A stretch of 64,000 nt of DNA, from the sequence record MF327006. One strand, 5' to 3'. This document shows, one piece after another, positions 3,109 to 33,559 of this stretch (position 1 is its first letter; each line of letters begins with the position of its first letter). The notes under the pieces were generated by a model. That model made no database searches. It had not been told where the DNA came from and worked only from the letters and a program-made list of their open reading frames with translations. The DNA comes from Shigella phage Sf20. Both the position numbers and the translations under genes were made by a program.

Positions 3109-3507
3109 TTAACTTTCCAGAATATCGCGAGCTTCGTTACGATCCTTGATGATTTTCAAGACAAATTCCAGTTTTTCTTTGTTCAGCGTTCCATTTTCCA
3201 TTGCTTCTTTGACGGTAAACACTCCGCCACCTTGCCCGTATACAGTGACAGTGATTTCACCTAACATCGTGGTATGAAAACCGCCAATTTTCGGTGATTC
3301 GAAAGAAACAATTACCTCGCGAACAGTATTACCGTCGTTGATTTCTGAGAGGGTAATGTCGTTTTTGTAGGCGGTTGCTTTAACCATACGGATCAGCATA
3401 GTCTGATCTGGGGAGATGGTCATTTTGTCCATTGCATGTTGCAATGCAGCGTAACCGAAAACTTTAACGAAGTCCAGAACGTCTTTGCGAGTTTGAAATT
3501 TAATCAT
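3109..3507 (-). CDS. hypothetical protein
   Basis: ORF track 132 aa; SD AAGGAG; preceded by promoter+stem-loop cassette. Confidence 0.5.
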   Translation of the reverse strand: MIKFQTRKDVLDFVKVFGYAALQHAMDKMTISPDQTMLIRMVKATAYKNDITLSEINDGNTVREVIVSFESPKIGGFHTTMLGEITVTVYGQGGGVFTVKEAMENGTLNKEKLEFVLKIIKDRNEARDILES

Positions 3508-3540
3508 CTTGATACTCCTTAGTTGTTTTGGTATGGGAGT

Positions 3541-3569
3541 ATCTTACTACTCCCGTGATATGCTGTCAA
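3541..3569 (-). promoter_or_regulatory. sigma70-type early promoter with stem-loop (PeSL-like)
   Basis: Minus sense TTGACA-N17-TAAGAT; -10 lies in hairpin GGGAGTA...TACTCCC. Confidence 0.55.
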
Positions 3570-3727: not shown

Positions 3728-3765
3728 TTGATTCTCCTTAAAGTGTATTTCGTTTCGATGGGGGT

Positions 3766-3794
3766 ATATTACTACCCCCGTTTCATGCTGTCAA
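3766..3794 (-). promoter_or_regulatory. sigma70-type early promoter with stem-loop (PeSL-like)
   Basis: Minus sense TTGACA-N17-TAATAT; hairpin GGGGGTAGTAATATACCCC. Confidence 0.55.
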
Positions 3795-4013: not shown

Positions 4014-4046
4014 TTTGATTCTCCTTTGTTTCGTTTCGATGGGGGT

Positions 4047-4075
4047 ATATTACTACCCCCGTTATTCAGTGTCAA
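4047..4075 (-). promoter_or_regulatory. sigma70-type early promoter with stem-loop (PeSL-like)
   Basis: Minus sense TTGACA-N17-TAATAT; near-identical copy of the 3766-3794 element. Confidence 0.55.
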
Positions 4076-26448: not shown

Positions 26449-26688
26449 ATGGTCTATAATATCGTCATTGGTGCTTTGTCTAGTTTCGGAATGAAACTAT
26501 TGTCAAAGTTAATTAGTGAAAAGATGCTCACTAAAATTTTCTTCTATTGCGCTCGTCGTCTTGCGGCCTATACCAATACGCCAATTGATGATCGTTTTGT
26601 GGAAGAACTTTATAAGGAGTTTAATAAAGATCAGTCAGAAGATAGTAACGAGCAAGATAAACCTAGTGATAGTCAACTACCTAAATAA
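26449..26688 (+). CDS. hypothetical small protein in the position of gene 38
   Basis: ORF track 79 aa; SD AAGGAG; hydrophobic N-terminus, acidic C-terminus. Confidence 0.45.
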   Translation: MVYNIVIGALSSFGMKLLSKLISEKMLTKIFFYCARRLAAYTNTPIDDRFVEELYKEFNKDQSEDSNEQDKPSDSQLPK

Positions 26689-26721: not shown

Positions 26722-27378
26722 ATGCAAGTTTCTGAAAAAGGGAAAGACTTTGCTATCTCAAATGTCCTGCGCGCTATTTTCACAACTAAAAGCACGGAGT
26801 TGCTCGTACTTCGTGTTTTTGCTGCCGTCGTGTTGTCCATATTGGCATTTGTCGTTTATAGTAAAAACGAGTTATTTGCGCTTTATAAAGAGACTCGTTA
26901 TGAGACTTATGCTCACATTCTCCAGGTAGAGAAAGACCGCAATTTTGATAATGCAGCACAGGAGCAGTTACAGATAGTTCATGTGTCGGCTGATGCCGAT
27001 TTTTCTGCTGTTTTTAGTTTTCGTCCGAAAAACCTAAACTATTTTGTTGATTTGGTGGCATATGAAGGAAAGCTACCGCATACAATCGATGAAAAGAATT
27101 TAGGCGGATTCCCTATCAATAAAACGAGTGAAGAATATCGTAGACATCTTTTAGGTAAATCATATTTTACCGATAAAGATTTCCAGTATATTCCATCAAG
27201 AGAAAAGAAATTAGAGAATATCGATATAGGTTTCATGTATTCTTGTCCTATATTCAATCTCGATAATGTCTATTCTGGTAGTATCGCCATTTCATGGAAG
27301 AATAAACCGGATATTGACATTGAGAATTTAGATACTCTTTGCAATCAATCTGCCAGAATCCTCGGAAGGATTAGATAA
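26722..27378 (+). CDS. t: holin
   Basis: 218 aa; LQIVHVSADADFSAVFSFRPKNLNYFVDLVAYEGKLP...MYSCPIFNLDNVYSGSI matches T4 holin T. Confidence 0.9.
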   Translation: MQVSEKGKDFAISNVLRAIFTTKSTELLVLRVFAAVVLSILAFVVYSKNELFALYKETRYETYAHILQVEKDRNFDNAAQEQLQIVHVSADADFSAVFSFRPKNLNYFVDLVAYEGKLPHTIDEKNLGGFPINKTSEEYRRHLLGKSYFTDKDFQYIPSREKKLENIDIGFMYSCPIFNLDNVYSGSIAISWKNKPDIDIENLDTLCNQSARILGRIR

Positions 27379-27384
27379 CTTAAA

Positions 27385-27416
27385 GGGGAAGCCTTTCGGC
27401 CTCCCCTTCTTTTTAT
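27385..27416 (+). terminator. intrinsic terminator after the late tail-fiber/holin unit
   Basis: Hairpin GGGGAAGCC-UUUC-GGCCUCCCC (one mismatch) followed by UUCUUUUUAUU. Confidence 0.6.
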
Positions 27417-27661
27417 TGGCGCATAGAAGCCCCTGAATCACATTTTGACGCTGTATGATGAAAACATGTAGCGTACCAGTCATCGGCTTGTTTGTCTTCG
27501 TCAGAAAACGCGTAATTGCGTTGTATGCCGTTTTCTACTTTGACCAGTGCAATAGCTGTTTCTGGAAGATCAATCAATCGGACAAAATCACCGTCTTCCC
27601 ACTCCACACGGGCAATATCATAGCCCATCTCAAAGTATACAATCGCTTGTTCTAATTTCAT
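27413..27661 (-). CDS. DUF2829-like small protein (Tad2-family candidate)
   Basis: 82 aa; N-terminal AIVYFEMGYDIARVEW and C-terminal DEDKQADDWYA resemble the DUF2829 pattern; from memory. Confidence 0.4.
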   Translation of the reverse strand: MKLEQAIVYFEMGYDIARVEWEDGDFVRLIDLPETAIALVKVENGIQRNYAFSDEDKQADDWYATCFHHTASKCDSGASMRQ

Positions 27662-27987
27662 TCTGGAAACTTCCCGTAAACATTCTCTGCCAGCTTACGT
27701 GCATCTTTTACAATATCTTTCATATAATGACTATAATTTTTAGCTAGATCAATGATGCAATCAACAAAGAAGTAATAGCGTCGCAGTGCTACCAGCTCAA
27801 CATCTTCAAGATGACCATTTTCTCCAATCGCTGAAATATGTTTAAATTCCTTTCGGATCGCGTCCATCGCTACATTAACTTCTTTTATAATATCTTTCGT
27901 ATTATATGCACCTCGACTAATCAAAATTTTGGTTAGGTCTTCTGCTTTTTCGTGAAAGTTGTCAATTTCAAACTCGATCATAATCAC
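27658..27987 (-). CDS. hypothetical protein, paralog of 28096-28428
   Basis: ORF track 109 aa; C-terminal ...ENVYGKF shared with the paralog. Confidence 0.5.
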   Translation of the reverse strand: MIMIEFEIDNFHEKAEDLTKILISRGAYNTKDIIKEVNVAMDAIRKEFKHISAIGENGHLEDVELVALRRYYFFVDCIIDLAKNYSHYMKDIVKDARKLAENVYGKFPE

Positions 27988-28095
27988 CTCTCATAATTTC
28001 ACGCTGTTGTTTCAACATTTTTTCGTGGTTTGCTAATTCTATACCTTGTAATAGCATAACCAGTGCAATTTTCAATGATTCATCATCTTTCATAA

Positions 28096-28428
28096 TCAAA
28101 ATTTACCGAAAATATTCTCTGTCATAATTCTTGCTTCGTCGATTATTTTCGTCATGTTCATGGTGTAGTTATGATCATTTAGTGCTTTAATAACAACGAG
28201 CAAGGAATCTAAAAACACTCGATACCGGGTATATTCTACGCTATTTGTGAATACCGATGTTTTCTCTACTTTATCGATCAGATAGCCTAAAGCCGATAGC
28301 GCCTCGTTTACTTCCCTTGTTACTTTATCGGCGCTAAACAACACCGGATAAAGACGCGGTGTGATTAACCGCGCTGCCTCTTTCAATTCGGTCGCTTTCC
28401 ATGATTCATATTTGTCATAGTTAAACAT
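28096..28428 (-). CDS. hypothetical protein, paralog of 27658-27987
   Basis: ORF track 110 aa; C-terminal ...ENIFGKF. Confidence 0.5.
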   Translation of the reverse strand: MFNYDKYESWKATELKEAARLITPRLYPVLFSADKVTREVNEALSALGYLIDKVEKTSVFTNSVEYTRYRVFLDSLLVVIKALNDHNYTMNMTKIIDEARIMTENIFGKF

Positions 28429-28440
28429 TGTATAATCTCC

Positions 28441-28773
28441 TTACAGATGAAAACCTGTTACGATCACCGCATCGATCATACCGTTAGGAATAAACGGTTC
28501 GCCATCTTTTATTTCAACTTTGAATTGATGCCATTTCGCTAATACTTCTTCCGGTACACCCAGCGATTCAGCGTCTGCTTTAGTTTCATCCATAATCCAA
28601 CTAGGCTGCATGAGAGCATAGTTTACATAGTCCATTTCTGGGGTCATGTCATCAATGTTAATATATTTGCAGTTGACGCGTTTCAGAATTTCAAATTCTT
28701 TATTGTCAACCTGTACCATGTATAATTCAGTAGTTTCTGGAATCAGTTCCCACACAATCAGTACATTTTTCAT
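28441..28773 (-). CDS. hypothetical protein
   Basis: ORF track 110 aa. Confidence 0.45.
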   Translation of the reverse strand: MKNVLIVWELIPETTELYMVQVDNKEFEILKRVNCKYINIDDMTPEMDYVNYALMQPSWIMDETKADAESLGVPEEVLAKWHQFKVEIKDGEPFIPNGMIDAVIVTGFHL

Positions 28774-28781
28774 AGTTCACC

Positions 28782-29150
28782 TCACTTAACAAAGATTTTC
28801 TTTAATGCTTTCAGGATCGTTGCTTCCGGCGCTTCTTCCGGTGGAGGAAGCAATTCTACCACTTCCTCTTCCAACTCGATATAGTCTACCAGATATTCTA
28901 CATAGAATGCAAGTGCTTCCATGAAATTAGATGCTACATCCGATTCACCACACGCGCCTACATGCATTGTATAAACATCACTGCGATCAAGTTTGTGGAT
29001 GCTTCCCAGATAGTTTCGGTTATACCAGACTTCCCACACTTTCAACTTTCCGGTTTTTGTTGATGTTTTATAATCGGTTTCGTAATGATGTAATTGACGT
29101 TGCAGATCATTGATAATAACACATTTTTCGTAATTGTTTTGAATTTCCAT
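28782..29150 (-). CDS. hypothetical protein
   Basis: ORF track 122 aa. Confidence 0.45.
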   Translation of the reverse strand: MEIQNNYEKCVIINDLQRQLHHYETDYKTSTKTGKLKVWEVWYNRNYLGSIHKLDRSDVYTMHVGACGESDVASNFMEALAFYVEYLVDYIELEEEVVELLPPPEEAPEATILKALKKIFVK

Positions 29151-29160
29151 GATGCAATCC

Positions 29161-29352
29161 TCACTTATCGTTCAGAAGTTCTAAAACTTTCTGTCGTACT
29201 TTGTCAATATTAGTTGATTCAAAAACTGTACGGTATCCCCAGCTTTGACCGTATGAGCGGTTGCAATCTCCATATCCCCATTGTTCAACCTGATAGTATT
29301 CAAGGAATGGGTGCTGCCGAACTATGATACCATCGCGATTAAAAATTACCAT
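29161..29352 (-). CDS. hypothetical protein
   Basis: ORF track 63 aa. Confidence 0.4.
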   Translation of the reverse strand: MVIFNRDGIIVRQHPFLEYYQVEQWGYGDCNRSYGQSWGYRTVFESTNIDKVRQKVLELLNDK

Positions 29353-29375
29353 AATATAATCCTCACGTCAACAAC

Positions 29376-29663
29376 TTATTTTCGGTTGTGGTCACGATAT
29401 GTTTTAAAATATCCCTCGTACCACGGTAAAATATCTGGATTTTTACCACTATACAGACCTTTAACCATCATGTCAATAAGGCCATCTGGTGTTTGATAGT
29501 TTCCCGCTTTTATAAGCTCTCTGATTAAAATCTCTCTGTATATGTCTTTCGGATCTTCGTAATCAACTTGTATTGTGGTTGTGGTCTCATTCAATTTGGT
29601 TTCTGGAGTATCTCGGATCGCATCCCACCAATCTTTTGTGATCTTCATGTTATTGAATTGCAT
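29376..29663 (-). CDS. hypothetical protein
   Basis: ORF track 95 aa. Confidence 0.45.
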   Translation of the reverse strand: MQFNNMKITKDWWDAIRDTPETKLNETTTTIQVDYEDPKDIYREILIRELIKAGNYQTPDGLIDMMVKGLYSGKNPDILPWYEGYFKTYRDHNRK

Positions 29664-29674
29664 AATTTAACCTC

Positions 29675-30433
29675 TTACTTGCAAACGTATTGATCTACAT
29701 CAATTGCGCCACCGAATGTAGGATGACGTTTTTCGAATCGAATAGTTCCGTCGTTTGGTTCGAAAACGGAGTATTCATATAGATCTTTCTTGCCAACATT
29801 CTTATAAAACCCGCCTTTAGTCATAACGGTTTCTTGTACGTTTGCTTTGTGTACGTTGTATTCATCAATGTATACAAAATCAACCATCTTCCCATTTTTA
29901 ATGGTTACTTTAAGATCTCCTGGTTGGTTTCCATATTTTGCATACAGTGGGGCTTCTTTAATTTTGGTGGAAATTCCATCTTTCATACTCCACTCATAAC
30001 GAACGGTGCATTGATAGGTAAAAGTTTCGACCTTCGGTTCTTCTACCACTTTTGCTTCCTGTTTCGGTTGTTCTTCTTCAACCTTCGCAGAAGTCTCTGA
30101 ATAGCTTTCTGACGCGGTTTCTTCTTTAGGTAATACATTCATCAAGTTTTGGATTTGAGCGTTATATACAGCCTCCAGTGGCTGAATCTGCCCGATATTG
30201 ATCATTGTATCACGAACAGTTTTATTCCAGTTGCGTTGCTCTTGTTTAAGAGACGGATCAATCTTAACAGCCTTAACATACACCTCATGAAGTTTAGAGT
30301 CCAGTGCGGAGATAGACTCATTAGCACAAATAAACTTCTCTGATTTGGTAGTAGCTTTAGCGCAATCAAAGGACGCAGCGTTAGCACCGAAAGCAGTAGC
30401 AGAAAGAACGATAGCAGCGATAATGTTTTTCAT
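29675..30433 (-). CDS. secreted protein with DUF1311/LprI-like (lysozyme-inhibitor-like) N-terminal domain
   Basis: Signal peptide MKNIIAAIVLSATAFGANA; CAKATTKSEKFICANESISALDSKLHEVY...KQEQRNWNKTVRD; C-terminal Cys-flanked domain; own promoter. Confidence 0.55.
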   Translation of the reverse strand: MKNIIAAIVLSATAFGANAASFDCAKATTKSEKFICANESISALDSKLHEVYVKAVKIDPSLKQEQRNWNKTVRDTMINIGQIQPLEAVYNAQIQNLMNVLPKEETASESYSETSAKVEEEQPKQEAKVVEEPKVETFTYQCTVRYEWSMKDGISTKIKEAPLYAKYGNQPGDLKVTIKNGKMVDFVYIDEYNVHKANVQETVMTKGGFYKNVGKKDLYEYSVFEPNDGTIRFEKRHPTFGGAIDVDQYVCK

Positions 30434-30468
30434 AATATATTCCTCAGTGTTTTGTCTTGATGGGAGTA

Positions 30469-30497
30469 TCTTACTACTCCCTTAATCCGGTGTCAAC
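30469..30497 (-). promoter_or_regulatory. sigma70-type early promoter with stem-loop (PeSL-like)
   Basis: Minus sense TTGACA-N17-TAAGAT; hairpin GGGAGTAGTAAGATACTCCC. Confidence 0.55.
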
Positions 30498-30507
30498 TAC
30501 TTTTAAA

Positions 30508-30768
30508 TTATTTTCGCCATTCACCGGAAACAATAAAGTTTGTAAAGTGAACGTGGTCCGTGATAACGTCATTAAGTACCATATGCGGATATGCTTTAGT
30601 GTAATCACGTTTACGATCAGTCATCCAACCAACGAAAGTCGGTGCAAAGTACGGCACACCGTCAGATGATGCCATATTAAACCATTTATCAGCCATAAAT
30701 GCAGCCGCCCTAAGATTTTTAATTGAAGTAGTGCGACTAATTTCAAAAACTTTATCGGTAAAATTCAT
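30508..30768 (-). CDS. hypothetical protein
   Basis: ORF track 86 aa. Confidence 0.45.
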   Translation of the reverse strand: MNFTDKVFEISRTTSIKNLRAAAFMADKWFNMASSDGVPYFAPTFVGWMTDRKRDYTKAYPHMVLNDVITDHVHFTNFIVSGEWRK

Positions 30769-30980
30769 TTTAAGCCCCCCGCTCGTGCATTAATACGCAT
30801 TTTCTGCATAGCCATGATCTGGTTTACTGCTTCTTCTTTACGTTCTTGCGTGATAACGTGACCAGATTCCGTAAACTCTCCCGCAACTTCTTCTACGATC
30901 TCGCGAACTTGAGAACGTCCAAAGATGCGGTTTCCTTCGTAGCTCATAAATTCAGTCACTACTTGCTCGATAGATTTCAT
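30765..30980 (-). CDS. hypothetical protein
   Basis: ORF trimmed to ATG 30978-30980 with SD AAGGAG. Confidence 0.45.
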   Translation of the reverse strand: MKSIEQVVTEFMSYEGNRIFGRSQVREIVEEVAGEFTESGHVITQERKEEAVNQIMAMQKMRINARAGGLK

Positions 30981-31012
30981 GTGATTCTCCTTCTTTCGTT
31001 TGGTATGGGAGT

Positions 31013-31041
31013 ATAATACTACTCCCATTTCTTTACGTCAA
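31013..31041 (-). promoter_or_regulatory. sigma70-type early promoter with stem-loop (PeSL-like)
   Basis: Minus sense TTGACG-N17-TATTAT; hairpin GGGAGTAGTATTATACTCCC. Confidence 0.55.
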
Positions 31042-31044
31042 CAA

Positions 31045-31206
31045 CTATTTTAAATTATTTTCGACCTTCACCCATTCCGCGTATTCTTGCGCGGCTACTT
31101 TCGGATTTAGTCCGTCTTCGTACATTGCATCAAGTAATTCTTTGTCGGTGGGCTTATACCCTAGATAAGCCTCCACCTGATTTTTCCAAATTTTATACCA
31201 GTTCAT
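31045..31206 (-). CDS. small hypothetical protein
   Basis: ORF trimmed to ATG 31204-31206 (MNWYKIWKN...). Confidence 0.35.
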   Translation of the reverse strand: MNWYKIWKNQVEAYLGYKPTDKELLDAMYEDGLNPKVAAQEYAEWVKVENNLK

Positions 31207-31210
31207 ATTA

Positions 31211-31483
31211 TCACCAGTCAAGAGCGCGTGTCTCTGCGTCTTCCCATGCTTGATCCATAACAGCCTTGAAAACATATTCTAAAGTATCATCTTTAGAGAA
31301 TCCGAAGATTTTAGACGGAATATCTTCAATTGCTACTCCCGCAACTTCTGCATTACGCGCTTGACAATAATGCAACTCTAAGTTATCGAGATAGCGACCG
31401 CCTAATTTCTCCATATCATCCCAGCATTTCCAGTAACCTACTTTATTTGCAATTGCTAACACTTTGCTGTTTTCGTTGCTCAT
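31211..31483 (-). CDS. hypothetical protein
   Basis: ORF trimmed to ATG 31481-31483 with SD AAGGAG. Confidence 0.45.
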   Translation of the reverse strand: MSNENSKVLAIANKVGYWKCWDDMEKLGGRYLDNLELHYCQARNAEVAGVAIEDIPSKIFGFSKDDTLEYVFKAVMDQAWEDAETRALDW

Positions 31484-31514
31484 CTTTGATTCTCCTTTTG
31501 TTTGGTATGTGTGT

Positions 31515-31543
31515 ATTATGCGAGGCTGGATTCGTGAAGTCAA
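31515..31543 (-). promoter_or_regulatory. sigma70-type early promoter
   Basis: Minus sense TTGACT-N17-CATAAT. Confidence 0.5.
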
Positions 31544-31550
31544 CAACTTT

Positions 31551-31584
31551 TTAAAATAAAAAAGCCGACCACAAGGATCGGCTT
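31551..31584 (-). terminator. intrinsic terminator
   Basis: Minus-sense hairpin AAGCCGAUCC-UUGU-GGUCGGCUU followed by UUUUUAUUUU; near-identical to the plus-strand terminator at 21714-21736. Confidence 0.6.
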
Positions 31585-31593
31585 AATAATCAG

Positions 31594-31989
31594 TTACTTA
31601 CTAAATTTCTTTTTGGCTTCGTCTACCGCATGAGATGCCAGTACCGCAGCCGCATGTGCGCTTTTATCTGTGTTGCAGAGAACGCCCAGATAAACATCAC
31701 GCCAAAGTTTAATCATCTCGTAGATCATATCAATATCATTTTCTTGTTTGTTGGCGATGCTATTCGTCGTTATCTGGTAAGGTAACGGCTTGATCTGTAC
31801 TGGTTCCGCCATCGGGCTAATCGGTTTCGGATCAGTCATAATAGGTGCTGTTGTGGGTGGTGTTTTCCATACATCATTATTCCACGGTTTAATCGTTGTA
31901 TCGTAAAGTTTATAAGGATTTTTGTCTGGATTAACCATCCAGGCATGATGAGTACCCAAACCATTTGAAGTAATGCGTCGTTCAGTCAT
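31594..31989 (-). CDS. hypothetical protein
   Basis: ORF track 131 aa. Confidence 0.5.
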   Translation of the reverse strand: MTERRITSNGLGTHHAWMVNPDKNPYKLYDTTIKPWNNDVWKTPPTTAPIMTDPKPISPMAEPVQIKPLPYQITTNSIANKQENDIDMIYEMIKLWRDVYLGVLCNTDKSAHAAAVLASHAVDEAKKKFSK

Positions 31990-32191
31990 ACTTTCCCTCC
32001 AAAAATTCTTTCATCAAATAGTCTATCGTTGCTCTGTGTTCTGGTGTGTTTGTTATCTCTGCTAACTTGTTCAGAGATTCAATAGTGATCCGGTTGGCTT
32101 CTTCCATAGTCTCAAAGACCATCGGTACAATCTTTTTATTGTTGTACACGAAAGCCACATAACCGCCTTCTGGATATTCTTTCATAATCAA
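31982..32191 (-). CDS. hypothetical protein
   Basis: ORF track 69 aa; coupled to gene 52. Confidence 0.45.
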   Translation of the reverse strand: MIMKEYPEGGYVAFVYNNKKIVPMVFETMEEANRITIESLNKLAEITNTPEHRATIDYLMKEFLEGKYD

Positions 32192-33552
32192 CCCTTCTTA
32201 AGTTCTTTAAGATCTTTCTTATATTCCTTCATTGCGGTCGTCTTTGTCCAATACTCATATTCACTATGATGTTTATCGGCATCTTTGACCAGTCGATCAT
32301 ACTCTTCTTGAGTAACGCTATACAATGGCATAGAAACTAGCTTATCGGCGTATGGACGCAGTTTTTCATGTCCATTGATGGATTGCATTACCTCGGCCTT
32401 TTTCTTTCCCTGTAGTTCGATTTCGCCCTTAATTACAAGGTCGATAAATTCAGCTTTAGCCATTGCATAATTGTATGCTTCCAGTGTTTCCGCTTGCATC
32501 AATTCAATGCGTTTATCTACATAGCCTAATCGGATTTCGACGAATCGACGGATCAGATCGCTCGCTTTCTCGAATACTTCTACTAAACCACGTTCGTTAA
32601 CTACTACGATATTCTGGGCTACTAACTGCGTTAGTTTAAAATCCTTCATGATTTGCTCATGTCGAGCGGATTCATCTTCGCTTTTGAAATAATCACGTTT
32701 CAGTGTTACCTCAAATCTGAATCCGTCCTTAGAGCAACGGTCATTATACGATACAATCAGATCTTTTTCTTCCAGTGCATCCAGTACCGCTACATATTCT
32801 TCACGGTCGAACTTATAAGGAACTTCTGATATTGTCAGCTTAGTCTTGCCGTTTAGTTCATATGTACCCTCAAGAATAACACCATCGCGGTCATCGCGCG
32901 GGATAACTTTACCCGTGAATTTTGGGAATTGAACACTAGGTTCTTTATCCAGTTTTCCGGCAAGTGCTAGCTCTGTGCATTCAATGAGGCTTTCCAGTGA
33001 ATGCGGTAAAATGTCAGTTTTATACCCTGTAGCAATACCACTAATACCATTAGCCAATACCATTGGCACAACTGGCAAGTAGAACGCTGGCGGGATGTGT
33101 TCCAGATCTTCGTGCTTGGGTGCGCAATTCATATCTTTATAGATTTTAAAGAAGTTTTCATGCACACGAGCAAAGATATAACGTGCCGCACCTGCTTTCT
33201 GGACTAAACGAGATCCGAAGTTACCTTGACCGTCAAGCAGTGGAGTATTATTGCTCCATGTATTCGCCATGAGTGATCCGGCTTCTACGGCATTAGTTTC
33301 CCCGTGGTGATAACCCAACTCAGCAACACCAGATCCAATATCTGCCATCTTACGGAATTTCTTACGGTCGCCTTTACTCTTTTGTAAAGCACATTCCATA
33401 ACAAAGCGTTGCACTGGTTTAAGCCCATCCACTAATTGAGGAATCCCGCGTTCCTCGGCAGAATAGATCGCATATTCCTTAGCTTCATTATGTACAATGC
33501 TTTCAAGGCTGCGGTAAGTAAATGTGTTTACAATTTGACTAATTTTATCCAT
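32188..33552 (-). CDS. 52: DNA topoisomerase II medium subunit
   Basis: GIPQLVDGLKPVQRFV, AELGYHHGE, GNFGS, ARYIFARV motifs; ATG at 33550-33552 preferred over the track GTG start. Confidence 0.9.
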   Translation of the reverse strand: MDKISQIVNTFTYRSLESIVHNEAKEYAIYSAEERGIPQLVDGLKPVQRFVMECALQKSKGDRKKFRKMADIGSGVAELGYHHGETNAVEAGSLMANTWSNNTPLLDGQGNFGSRLVQKAGAARYIFARVHENFFKIYKDMNCAPKHEDLEHIPPAFYLPVVPMVLANGISGIATGYKTDILPHSLESLIECTELALAGKLDKEPSVQFPKFTGKVIPRDDRDGVILEGTYELNGKTKLTISEVPYKFDREEYVAVLDALEEKDLIVSYNDRCSKDGFRFEVTLKRDYFKSEDESARHEQIMKDFKLTQLVAQNIVVVNERGLVEVFEKASDLIRRFVEIRLGYVDKRIELMQAETLEAYNYAMAKAEFIDLVIKGEIELQGKKKAEVMQSINGHEKLRPYADKLVSMPLYSVTQEEYDRLVKDADKHHSEYEYWTKTTAMKEYKKDLKELKKG

Positions 33553-33559
33553 CTTCACC

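What the first reader, a model, noticed from the sequence alone, without database searches (positions are those of the whole stretch)
27379..32187. Accessory region of 17 small genes between t and 52, without asiA or motA
This stretch holds small ORFs of 53-252 aa organised in promoter-flanked cassettes. None matches AsiA or MotA from memory, consistent with a phage lacking the T4 middle-mode apparatus. It is the most likely place for host-takeover and anti-defence genes.
Basis: inference. Interest (0 to 1): 0.4.

Follow-up and report, generated by a model that had tools for sequence, protein, structure and literature searches.

The report
Accessory early-gene region of RB49-like phage
This is the already described variable "accessory gene" region between the holin and topoisomerase genes of an RB49-type T4-like coliphage; most of its 15 small genes remain unknown, but one looks like a Tad2 immune-signal sponge and one is a secreted protein partly shared with E. 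coli prophages.

Summary
The window is a Krischvirus (RB49-like) genome, 96-98% identical to RB49 in this interval. Between t and gene 52 I count 15 leftward ORFs of 41-252 aa, not 17. Fourteen show purifying selection and one (41 aa) is doubtful. No AsiA or MotA relative exists anywhere in the 64-kb window, which agrees with published work on RB49. "Promoter-flanked cassettes" applies only to the gene-52-proximal third. There, sigma-70 promoter/stem-loop units (the published PeSLs) bound gene cassettes that come and go among relatives. The other nine genes form one tightly packed operon.

- **ORF1 (82 aa)** passes Pfam's Tad2-like threshold. Its predicted fold matches solved Tad2 structures best. 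Three of the five mutationally validated ligand-binding residues are kept, and the variable insertion is absent.
- **ORF9 (252 aa)** is a secreted protein with an LprI/DUF1311 domain and a beta-barrel. Its first 408 nt are 94-96% identical to an E. coli prophage gene, and its C-terminal domain is polymorphic.
- **ORF6** is the only gene shared with T4's asiA-motA interval (arn.4).

The remaining ORFs have no assignable function. The region is ordinary and largely known; the two candidate functions are modest leads.

The parts
27383..27408 (.). Bidirectional intrinsic terminator shared by t (rightward) and the ORF9-ORF1 operon (leftward)
   Evidence: Hairpin of -16.8 kcal/mol on the + strand and -23.2 kcal/mol on the - strand (z -3.4 and -5.2), with a T-run on the t side and a shorter run of U on the other. 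GEC-3S annotates a terminator on both strands at the same place.
27413..27661 (-). ORF1, 82 aa: Tad2-like domain protein (candidate immune-signal sponge), last gene of the operon
   Evidence: Pfam PF11195 at 27.9 bits against a cutoff of 25, E 3.4e-6. AF2 model has pLDDT 74. The ten best Foldseek PDB hits are all Tad2 structures, TM 0.48-0.61. Aligned to SPO1 Tad2, W21, S53, D56 and D61-W62 are conserved, N26 becomes E22, W73 becomes Y50, and the beta2-beta3 insertion is deleted. pN/pS is 0.03. Present in 58 Krischvirus records at 95% identity or more.
27658..27981 (-). ORF2, 107 aa: unknown function, paralogue of ORF4
   Evidence: phrog_9457 E 8e-57. BLASTP against ORF4 gives E 7e-8, 37% identity over the C-terminal 43 aa. 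pN/pS 0.03.
27968..28093 (-). ORF3, 41 aa: doubtful gene lying between the two paralogues
   Evidence: phrog_17009 and annotated as RB49p256.1. It shows 0 synonymous and 9 non-synonymous differences against relatives.
28096..28428 (-). ORF4, 110 aa: unknown function, paralogue of ORF2
   Evidence: phrog_9457 E 1.6e-43. pN/pS 0.09.
28441..28773 (-). ORF5, 110 aa: unknown function
   Evidence: phrog_4658. A 52%-identical homologue sits in the divergent metagenomic contig L005. pN/pS 0.16.
28782..29150 (-). ORF6, 122 aa: homologue of T4 arn.4 (long form, Pfam 'Phage_T4_Y16F'). It is the only gene shared with T4's asiA-motA interval.
   Evidence: BLASTP against the extended T4 arn.4 ORF gives E 3e-9, 29% identity over 62 aa. 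The 58%-identical homologue in L005 carries a precomputed PF26821 hit. RB49's annotation note says the same.
29161..29352 (-). ORF7, 63 aa: unknown function
   Evidence: phrog_6957. pN/pS 0.10.
29360..29381 (-). PeSL relic: AT-rich stretch plus GTTGTTGACG (-35 box) fused directly to the ORF7 ribosome-binding site, with no usable -10 box
   Evidence: Repeat family D4. The exact 9-mer GTTGTTGAC occurs three times in the 64-kb window, all inside this interval. Sequence read; the relic is conserved in all relatives examined.
29376..29663 (-). ORF8, 95 aa: unknown function. It contains an internal sigma-70 promoter at 29476-29448.
   Evidence: phrog_15915. TTGACA-N17-TATAGT matches 11 of 12 consensus positions. 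Both hexamers are conserved in SSG23, although ORF8 there is only 49% identical.
29675..30433 (-). ORF9, 252 aa: secreted two-domain protein. It has a signal peptide, an LprI/DUF1311 helical domain, an E/K/P-rich linker and an 8-stranded beta-barrel with a conserved Cys pair.
   Evidence: Pfam PF07007 at 25.1 bits against a cutoff of 22. AF2 model described. Nucleotides 1-408 are 94-96% identical to a chromosomal E. coli gene in 26 of 5426 genomes, located at a prophage end. The C-terminal domain is polymorphic. UniProt names the RB49 copy 'LprI-like N-terminal domain-containing protein'.
30434..30507 (-). PeSL driving ORF9: TTGACA-N17-TAAGAT, with the hairpin GGGAGTAGTAAGATACTCCC overlapping the -10 box
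   Evidence: Hairpin energy is -11.9 kcal/mol. The same hairpin recurs at 3535-3554 in the window.
30508..30768 (-). ORF10, 86 aa: variable cassette gene, absent from RB49, TB34, FL04 and SSG23
   Evidence: phrog_19692. Present at 83-84% identity only in kaaroe and Delraymugoa; RB49 has a PeSL-bounded 51-aa gene in this position instead.
30765..30980 (-). ORF11, 71 aa: unknown function; its stop overlaps the ORF10 start
   Evidence: phrog_14966. Start codon fixed from the sequence and the RB49 annotation.
30981..31044 (-). PeSL driving ORF11-ORF10: TTGACG-N17-TATTAT, with a 9-bp hairpin at 31028-31005 overlapping the -10 box
   Evidence: Hairpin energy is -14.1 kcal/mol, z -3.7.
31045..31206 (-). 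ORF12, 53 aa: unknown function
   Evidence: phrog_8655. pN/pS 0.17.
31211..31483 (-). ORF13, 90 aa: unknown function; a promiscuous accessory gene
   Evidence: phrog_7287. It is 98% identical in contig L005, whose other matched genes outside this cassette block are 35-63% identical. Homologues at 38-46% identity occur in siphophages of about 45-50 kb.
31484..31593 (-). Intrinsic terminator (31584-31562) followed by promoter TTGACT-N17-CATAAT (31543-31515). It ends the gene 52 unit and starts ORF13-ORF12.
   Evidence: Terminator energy is -12.7 kcal/mol, z -4.0; the promoter segment itself forms no hairpin. GEC-3S and TB34 annotate a terminator and promoter here.
31594..31989 (-). ORF14, 131 aa: unknown function, co-transcribed with gene 52
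   Evidence: phrog_15644 E 4e-92. pN/pS 0.09.
31982..32185 (-). ORF15, 67 aa: unknown function; its start lies two bases after the gene 52 stop codon (TGATTATG)
   Evidence: phrog_15105. Junction sequence read.

Best explanation
The interval is the t-to-gene-52 hyperplastic region of an RB49-type (Krischvirus) T4-like coliphage. It is a block of non-essential early genes that occupies the place where T4 carries asiA, arn and motA.

Transcription runs leftward in four inferred units:
1. Gene 52, ORF15 and ORF14, ending at an intrinsic terminator.
2. A sigma-70 promoter driving ORF13 and ORF12.
3. A PeSL (promoter with a stem-loop over the -10 box) driving ORF11 and ORF10.
4. A PeSL driving ORF9 through ORF1, probably boosted by a promoter inside ORF8, and ending at a bidirectional terminator shared with t.

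The repeated PeSL units also act as recombination sites. As a result, single-gene cassettes between ORF14 and ORF9 are gained, lost or swapped among relatives.

Inferred functions, with my estimates:
- ORF1 has the Tad2 fold (about 0.85). It may sequester a TIR-derived nucleotide immune signal, which would protect the phage from Thoeris-type defence (about 0.4). It lacks the insertion that some Tad2 proteins use to bind cyclic dinucleotides.
- ORF9 is exported to the periplasm. I think it most likely binds or inhibits a cell-wall hydrolase or an envelope component, for example to exclude superinfecting phages (about 0.25).
- ORF6 is an arn.4 homologue of unknown role.
- The other 12 ORFs have no assignable function.

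Shown directly: gene structure, conservation, promoter, hairpin and terminator sequences, cassette polymorphism, domain and fold matches. Inferred: transcription units, timing of expression, and all biochemical activities. The confidence given below is for the regional architecture; the per-gene functional estimates are the ones stated above.
For: Identity and synteny: 96-98% nucleotide identity to RB49 and more than 45 other Krischvirus genomes, with the same gene order.

Real genes: pN/pS is 0.03-0.57 for 14 ORFs.

Early promoters only: four sigma-70 matches of 10-11 out of 12 on the coding strand, and no T4-type late promoter TATAAATA in the interval.

PeSL identity: the hairpin GGGAGTAGTAnnATACTCCC occurs five times in the window against zero expected, and two copies carry compensatory GGGGG/CCCCC stem changes. 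The sequences fit the published PeSL description (PMC2839356).

Cassette polymorphism bounded by these promoters was seen in six relatives.

No AsiA or MotA: and PMC1524935.

ORF1. A 49%-identical relative sits next to t in a divergent metagenomic T4-like contig.

ORF9.

ORF6.
Against: No transcript data were available, so the units and early timing are inferred from sequence alone. In raw count, promoter-like sites are not enriched over shuffles (14 found against 17 expected); only the high-scoring, repeated ones stand out.

ORF1:
- Pairwise sequence evidence is weak. hhalign against SPO1 Tad2 gives 1.6% probability, and profile and single-sequence searches of PDB sequences find nothing.
- The AF2 model rests on only four sequences.
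- Two validated ligand-contact positions carry acidic residues (N26 becomes E22, T78 becomes E55), which might disfavour a diphosphate ligand.
- The region deleted in ORF1 contributes to dimer packing in SPO1 Tad2, so tetramer formation is uncertain.

ORF9:
- The Pfam match covers only positions 1-71 of the 106-position profile.
- The LprI domain itself has no demonstrated lysozyme-inhibitor activity; Salmonella ScwA, which carries it, does not inhibit lysozyme (PMC7933661).
- The barrel gives only weak, generic fold hits.
- There is no significant match to MliC.
Confidence: 0.85

Rival explanations
1. The interval hides functional analogues of the T4 middle-mode apparatus. One or two of the small proteins, for example the ORF2/ORF4 paralogues, would be diverged or non-homologous anti-sigma or activator proteins occupying the ancestral asiA/motA position.
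For: The position is syntenic with T4 asiA-arn-motA, and the arn.4 homologue ORF6 shows that the region shares ancestry with T4. ORF2 and ORF4 are of AsiA-like size and are conserved. The literature notes AsiA homologues in phages that lack MotA (PMC1524935).
Against: tblastn and profile comparisons of all 15 ORF families against AsiA, MotA and their neighbours are negative. Earlier searches found no middle-promoter consensus in RB49 (PMC1524935).
Confidence: 0.05
2. ORF1 merely shares the small alpha/beta DUF2829 fold. It does something unrelated to immune-signal sequestration, or it binds a signal other than the Thoeris one.
For: Only 3 of the 5 mutationally validated ligand residues are kept, and two pocket positions are acidic. 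The insertion is deleted. The ORF1 clade is tiny and isolated: four clusters among 5.8 billion proteins.
Against: The Pfam score is above the curated threshold for three clade members. The ten best structural matches are exclusively Tad2. The most buried motif residues (W21, S53, D56, D61-W62) are conserved across the clade and in SPO1 Tad2. Purifying selection is very strong.
Confidence: 0.45
3. Many of the ORFs are chance or decaying reading frames in a recombination-prone spacer region rather than functional genes.
For: ORF3 has 0 synonymous and 9 non-synonymous differences. ORF10 and ORF11 have the highest pN/pS, at 0.39 and 0.57. All products are annotated 'hypothetical'. Cassettes are dispensable among relatives.
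Against: Fourteen ORFs show an excess of synonymous change. Coding density is 93% on one strand. Every ORF matches a PHROG family. Homologues at about 50% identity persist in a divergent phage in the same order.
Confidence: 0.05

Closest known systems
Hyperplastic regions with PeSL (promoter-early stem-loop) cassettes of phages RB49, phi1 and JSE (Arbiol et al. 2010, PMC2839356; Comeau et al. 2014, PMC4122927)
   Same: The phage genus and the locus are the same. Shared features are a sigma-70 consensus promoter with an AT-rich upstream stretch, a stem-loop overlapping the -10 box, a position directly upstream of ORFans, and cassette gain and loss between PeSLs among close relatives. phi1's unique ORFan 263.1, to judge by its number, lies in this very region.
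   Different: Nothing essential differs. This genome has its own cassette combination: the ORF11-ORF10 pair is present and the RB49 ORF263-type cassette is absent. One junction (ORF8/ORF7) keeps only the -35 half of a PeSL.
T4 t-asiA-arn-motA-52 region
   Same: The flanking genes are the same: t at 49% and gp52 at 51% amino-acid identity. Orientation is the same, the genes are small early genes, and an arn.4 homologue (ORF6) is retained.
   Different: AsiA, AsiA.1, Arn, Arn.1-3, MotA and MotA.1 have no detectable counterpart. Fourteen unrelated genes take their place.
Tad2 (Thoeris anti-defence 2, DUF2829/PF11195; SPO1 gp34.65, PDB 8SME/8SMF)
   Same: ORF1 scores above the Pfam threshold. Its predicted alpha1 plus antiparallel-sheet fold is closest to Tad2 crystal structures. 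The W of the W-N-G loop, the S-x-x-D motif and the C-terminal D-W are conserved. It is a small phage protein encoded among early genes.
   Different: Identity is only 15-18%. The beta2-beta3 insertion (SPO1 residues 36-59) is missing. N26 is E, T78 is E and W73 is Y. A disordered tail of about 17 residues is added. Oligomeric state and ligand are untested.
LprI/DUF1311 periplasmic proteins (M. tuberculosis LprI, which is LprI plus MliC; Salmonella ScwA) and the E. coli prophage 'lysozyme inhibitor LprI family protein'
   Same: ORF9 has a signal peptide, an N-terminal helical DUF1311 domain with a Cys pair, and then a second domain. The order of helical domain followed by an 8-stranded barrel mirrors M. 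tuberculosis LprI. The N-terminal 136 codons are 94-96% identical at the DNA level to the E. coli prophage gene.
   Different: There is no lipobox, so the protein is soluble rather than a lipoprotein. The barrel gives no significant MliC match. The C-terminal domain differs from the prophage version and varies within the genus. No activity is known.

Membership tests
PeSL-organised hyperplastic region (RB49/phi1 type) | Near-consensus sigma-70 -35 and -10 boxes preceded by an AT-rich stretch, located in intergenic DNA directly upstream of an ORFan | tested here: met
   Sites at 31543-31515, 31041-31013 and 30496-30468 match 10 of 12 consensus positions. Sequences were read.
PeSL-organised hyperplastic region (RB49/phi1 type) | Stable stem-loop within or next to the promoter | tested here: met
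   Hairpins over the -10 box at 31028-31005 (-14.1 kcal/mol) and 30481-30462 (-11.9 kcal/mol). The third unit has a separate upstream terminator hairpin instead. Compensatory stem changes occur in copies elsewhere in the window.
PeSL-organised hyperplastic region (RB49/phi1 type) | Insertions, deletions and replacements of ORFans between close relatives are bounded by these motifs | tested here: met
   Five variable cassette families (F16, F17, F18, F19 which is ORF10, and F25) lie between promoter motifs in six relatives.
PeSL-organised hyperplastic region (RB49/phi1 type) | Promoter and terminator activity in vivo; formation of mini-circles | not testable with these tools
   Shown experimentally for other PeSLs in PMC2839356, but not for these copies.
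Tad2 (PF11195) | Sequence match to the family profile above the curated threshold | tested here: met
   27.9 bits against a cutoff of 25, E 3.4e-6, covering profile positions 1-71 of 73. Relatives P0004 and P0005 also pass.
Tad2 (PF11195) | [quoted passage not shown] | tested here: met
   The AF2 model has H3-11 followed by five strands and a short helix. The ten best Foldseek PDB hits are all Tad2, with probability 1.00 and TM 0.48-0.61. The model is of medium confidence (pLDDT 74, four sequences).
Tad2 (PF11195) | Conservation of the gcADPR-contact residues (SPO1 W25, N26, W73, S76, T78, D79) | tested here: inconclusive
   W21, S53 and D56 are conserved, Y50 replaces W73, E22 replaces N26 and E55 replaces T78.
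Tad2 (PF11195) | Homotetramer with two inter-dimer ligand pockets | not testable with these tools
   Only a monomer could be modelled. The region deleted in ORF1 contributes to dimer packing in SPO1 Tad2.
Tad2 (PF11195) | Binds 1''-3' gcADPR and rescues phage from Thoeris | not testable with these tools
   Requires biochemistry and plaque assays.
LprI/DUF1311 (PF07007) | Profile match above threshold, with the conserved Cys pair and an export signal | tested here: met
   25.1 bits against a cutoff of 22, residues 24-76 on profile positions 1-71 of 106. C24 and C36 are invariant in 20 homologues. The N-terminal hydrophobic segment ending A-N-A is read from the sequence.
LprI/DUF1311 (PF07007) | MliC-type lysozyme-inhibitor domain, as in M. 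tuberculosis LprI | tested here: not met
   No Pfam MliC hit at E of 0.1 or better. hhalign of the C-terminal domain against E. coli MliC gives about 1% probability. Foldseek finds only generic lipocalin-like and NHBA-like barrels at E of 8e-3 or worse.
T4 middle-mode apparatus (AsiA and MotA) | A homologue of AsiA or MotA is encoded | tested here: not met
   tblastn of the 64-kb window gives best E of 1.2 for AsiA and 0.23 for MotA. hhalign probabilities are 1.5% or less. The literature reports none for RB49.
T4 Arn.4 / Pfam Phage_T4_Y16F | Sequence homology to the T4 arn.4 reading frame | tested here: met
   ORF6 against the extended T4 ORF gives BLASTP E 3e-9 and tblastn E 3.6e-7. PF26821 is recorded for a 58%-identical homologue; that model is evidently absent from the local Pfam copy.

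The most novel reading that the evidence does not exclude
Two of the genes could be new variants of counter-defence or competition tools.

First, ORF1 could be a minimal Tad2 without the insertion. Its acidified pocket (E22, E55) might sequester a TIR-derived signal other than 1''-3' gcADPR. To my knowledge, that would make it the first signal sponge of this family shown in a T4-like coliphage.

Second, ORF9 could be a periplasmic protein with a conserved LprI 'handle' and an exchangeable beta-barrel 'warhead'. Virulent Krischviruses and E. coli prophages would be swapping it (95% DNA identity over the handle), and it might block incoming phages' cell-wall hydrolases or receptors.
Probability: 0.2. 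Interest if true: 0.6.

Novelty: new member of a known kind. Interest (0 to 1): 0.3.

Why it matters
The region as a whole adds nothing new. Its architecture, its plasticity and the lack of MotA are already published for RB49 and phi1.

The value lies in two testable leads inside a block that every deposited genome examined labels 'hypothetical':
- A strongly conserved Tad2-like gene is present in all Krischvirus genomes. If it is active, it would extend nucleotide-signal sponges to T4-like coliphages, which are used in therapy collections.
- A secreted, domain-shuffled gene shows recent DNA exchange between virulent phages and E. coli prophages. That is direct evidence for gene flow across phage lifestyles.

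Tried and rejected
- **PDB sequence searches.** Single-sequence searches for ORF1, ORF5, ORF6, ORF9, ORF13 and ORF14, and for the Klebsiella phage ORF1 relative, found nothing significant. A profile search for the ORF1 family also found nothing.
- **PADLOC and NCBIfam.** No hits.
- **Exhaustive phmmer for ORF1.** It returned three long repetitive proteins (P0003, P0007, P0008). The two I inspected (P0007, P0008) are repeat proteins and I rejected all three as spurious.
- **ORF6 against T4 Arn.2 and Arn.3.** hhalign was negative. The true T4 counterpart turned out to be the upstream-extended arn.4 frame.
- **ORF9 barrel as an MliC domain.** Not supported: hhalign probability about 1%. A local 'YQC...FVY...C' resemblance is only a lead.
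- **Co-variation of the ORF9 C-terminal domain with the gp37 tail fibre (receptor masking).** Only two variant phages were examined. Both have divergent gp37, but RB49, which has the same ORF9 allele, also differs. The result is inconclusive.
- **Rfam and tRNA scans of the interval.** Empty.
- **Base composition.** The interval does not differ from its flanks, so there is no sign of a compositionally foreign island.

Full report
**What the window is.** The interval 27379-32187 is 96-98% identical in DNA to positions 155629-160403 of phage RB49. It matches more than 45 other Krischvirus genomes over at least 80% of its length. It is bounded on the left by the holin gene t (26722-27378, + strand; 49% identical to T4 t). 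It is bounded on the right by gene 52, the topoisomerase II medium subunit (32188-33558, - strand; 51% identical to T4 gp52).

**Checking the observation.** On the minus strand there is an uninterrupted array of 15 ORFs of 41-252 aa. They cover about 93% of the interval, and GC skew is negative throughout. RB49 itself has 15 annotated CDS here. Relatives carry 13-18 because some cassettes vary.

Against six relatives, 14 ORFs have an excess of synonymous change, with pN/pS of 0.03-0.57. The 41-aa ORF3 has 0 synonymous and 9 non-synonymous differences, so I regard it as doubtful. Every ORF matches a PHROG family of unknown function. None matches a structural or replication family, a defence-system model or an NCBIfam model.

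**AsiA and MotA.** I took the T4 proteins from the T4 record and searched the whole 64-kb window. AsiA, AsiA.1, Arn, Arn.1-4, MotA and MotA.1 gave no hit better than E = 0.16. The controls gp52 and t scored 5e-146 and 2e-67. Profile comparisons of all 15 ORF families with AsiA, MotA, Arn, Arn.2, Arn.3 and AsiA.1 gave probabilities of 7.4% or less.

This agrees with the literature. No motA orthologue or middle-promoter consensus could be found in RB49, and AsiA orthologues are listed only for other phages (PMC1524935). That part of the finding is correct but already known.

**Promoter-flanked cassettes.** On the coding strand there are four strong sigma-70 matches. Three of them sit in intergenic DNA behind the shared motif (A/T-rich)-GTTGTTGAC. 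The exact 9-mer occurs three times in the 64-kb window, all inside this interval.

Two of the promoters carry the hairpin GGGAGTAGTAnnATACTCCC over the -10 box, with energies of -14.1 and -11.9 kcal/mol. The hairpin occurs five times in the window against zero expected. Two distant copies (3760, 4041) have compensatory GGGGG/CCCCC stems. The third promoter has no hairpin of its own but is preceded by a classical terminator at 31584-31562.

These are the PeSL elements described for RB49 and phi1. Such elements have been shown to act as strong early promoters and terminators, and they are proposed to mediate cassette shuffling (PMC2839356).

Comparison with six relatives shows exactly that. Between ORF14 and ORF9, five gene families are variably present, each bounded by these promoters. 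ORF10 (86 aa) is one such cassette. It is absent from RB49, TB34, FL04 and SSG23, which carry a 51-62-aa gene (51 aa as annotated) between two PeSLs in its place.

By contrast, ORF9 to ORF1 (about 3 kb, nine genes) are tightly packed and conserved in all relatives, with no PeSL between them. Two features do occur inside this stretch:
- A relic at the ORF8/ORF7 junction, where the -35 half is fused to the ribosome-binding site.
- An 11-of-12 promoter inside ORF8, whose hexamers persist in SSG23 although ORF8 there is only 49% identical.

'Cassettes' therefore describes roughly one third of the interval.

**Inferred transcription.** The ORF15 start codon lies two bases after the gene 52 stop. 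No promoter intervenes, so ORF15 and ORF14 belong to the gene 52 unit, which ends at the 31584-31562 terminator. Three promoter units follow. The last runs into a bidirectional terminator shared with t, with energies of -23.2 and -16.8 kcal/mol. GEC-3S annotates that terminator on both strands. No T4-type late promoter occurs in the interval. Early expression is thus inferred, not shown.

**ORF1 (27413-27661).** It scores 27.9 bits on Pfam PF11195 'Tad2-like', against a curated cutoff of 25. Its clade is very small. Word-indexed and exhaustive searches found only four clusters. One of them sits beside t in a divergent metagenomic T4-like contig, in the same gene order.

An AlphaFold model (pLDDT 74) shows an N-terminal helix followed by an antiparallel sheet. 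Its ten best matches among solved structures are all Tad2, from SPO1 and a Myroides phage, with probability 1.00 and TM 0.48-0.61.

I recovered SPO1 Tad2 (gp34.65) from the SPO1 genome and aligned it. The comparison gives:
- W25 is kept as W21.
- S76 and D79 are kept as S53 and D56.
- The C-terminal D-W is kept.
- W73 is Y50.
- N26 is E22. N26 binds the diphosphate.
- T78 is E55. T78 contacts adenine.
- SPO1 residues of about 40-58, part of the insertion at 36-59, are missing.

The residue roles come from the Tad2 papers. In some Tad2 proteins that insertion binds cyclic dinucleotides.

ORF1 is the most constrained gene in the block, with 50 synonymous against 5 non-synonymous differences. It is present in 58 Krischvirus records.

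I conclude that it belongs to the Tad2 fold family (about 0.85). Signal sequestration is plausible but unproven (about 0.4). I found no paper linking Tad2 to Krischvirus.

**ORF9 (29675-30433).** The sequence starts with a signal peptide ending A-N-A. It is followed by an LprI/DUF1311 match above threshold. The model shows a four-helix domain (30-98), a disordered E/K/P-rich linker (104-131) and an eight-stranded barrel (135-251). Two cysteines in the helical domain and two in the barrel are invariant among 20 homologues.

The first 408 nt are 94-96% identical to a chromosomal gene found in 26 of 5426 complete E. coli genomes. In strain H2 that gene lies at the end of a prophage, next to hicAB. 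The C-terminal domains differ.

Within Krischvirus the N-terminal domain is 91-99% conserved. The C-terminal domain occurs in several forms that are only 36-37% identical to each other.

Fold searches give only weak, generic barrel matches. They also find phage 'lipoproteins' and RB49's own entry, which is already named as LprI-like. No MliC relationship could be shown. The LprI domain itself has no proven lysozyme-inhibitor activity (PMC7933661). A periplasmic role against cell-wall hydrolases or in exclusion of other phages is my best guess, at low confidence.

**ORF6 and the link to T4.** ORF6 matches the T4 arn.4 reading frame (tblastn E 3.6e-7, BLASTP E 3e-9). The match begins upstream of T4's annotated arn.4 start codon. 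This explains RB49's old note about a '12.8 kD T4 protein in the AsiA-MotA region'. It also explains the Pfam 'Phage_T4_Y16F' hit on a homologue. ORF6 is the only gene this interval shares with T4's.

**Other ORFs.** ORF2 and ORF4 are diverged paralogues. ORF13 is 98% identical in the divergent metagenomic contig, whose other matched genes outside the ORF11-ORF13 block are 35-63% identical. It also has homologues at 38-46% identity in unrelated siphophages. Both facts point to lateral movement. The rest have no leads.

**Verdict.** This is a known hyperplastic region of a known phage group, and the absence of the middle-mode genes is published. What the tools add is a credible Tad2-like gene, a mosaic secreted gene shared with prophages, and the arn.4 link to T4.

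Noticed in passing
L004 (T4 NC_000866) 3335-3397, minus strand, upstream of arn.4: The reading frame of T4 arn.4 stays open for 42 codons upstream of its annotated ATG. That stretch holds the motif W-D-I-W-Y-x3-Y-L-G-T-I, which is conserved in ORF6 of this phage. The annotated T4 start (68 aa) may therefore be too far downstream, with a non-ATG start for a protein of about 110 aa.
   Followed up: partly
window 29448-29476 (minus strand, inside ORF8): A near-consensus promoter, TTGACA-N17-TATAGT, lies within the coding sequence. Both hexamers are identical in phage SSG23, even though the spacer has diverged and ORF8 is only 49% identical there. This suggests a functional internal promoter for ORF7-ORF1.
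   Followed up: partly
window 3535-3554, 3760-3779, 4041-4060 (minus strand): Three more copies of the PeSL hairpin lie in a second region of the window. Two have GGGGG...CCCCC stems, that is, compensatory changes relative to GGGAG...CTCCC. -35-like boxes (GTAGTTGAC) lie nearby at 3790 and 4071. This is probably another hyperplastic region.
   Followed up: no
window 27968-28093 (ORF3): This 41-aa ORF, annotated in RB49 as p256.1, shows only non-synonymous differences (9 against 0 synonymous) among relatives. It lies between two paralogous genes. It may be a spacer or a decayed remnant rather than a gene.
   Followed up: partly
window 31211-31483 (ORF13); L005 1863-2135: ORF13 is 98% identical in a metagenomic T4-like contig whose other matched genes outside the ORF11-ORF13 block are 35-63% identical, and ORF11 and ORF12 are 83-93% identical. 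This indicates recent transfer of this cassette block between diverged phages. Distant homologues occur in siphophages of about 45-50 kb infecting Salmonella, Citrobacter, Escherichia and Vibrio.
   Followed up: partly
window 30026-30433; L006 8001-8408 (E. coli H2 chromosome): There is 94-96% DNA identity between the 5' half of a gene in a virulent phage and a prophage-end gene found in 26 of 5426 complete E. coli genomes. The identity stops at the linker that precedes the C-terminal domain.
   Followed up: partly
window 26449-26688 (+ strand), between gene 37 and t: Where T4 has gene 38, this phage has only a 79-aa ORF (RB49p252, overlapping the annotated dc5). Its homologue in L005 carries a precomputed Pfam hit to PF26925 'Phage_PM2_Gpl', while L005 itself does have a gp38-type gene. 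The C-terminal end of the 979-aa gp37 looks, from memory only, like a self-cleaving intramolecular chaperone domain. I did not test this.
   Followed up: no
L014 (phage UPWr_E1) 9239-10139: This relative has three extra genes of about 100 aa between the dc5-like ORF and a very different distal tail fibre (30% identity). It also carries an alternative ORF9 C-terminal domain.
   Followed up: no
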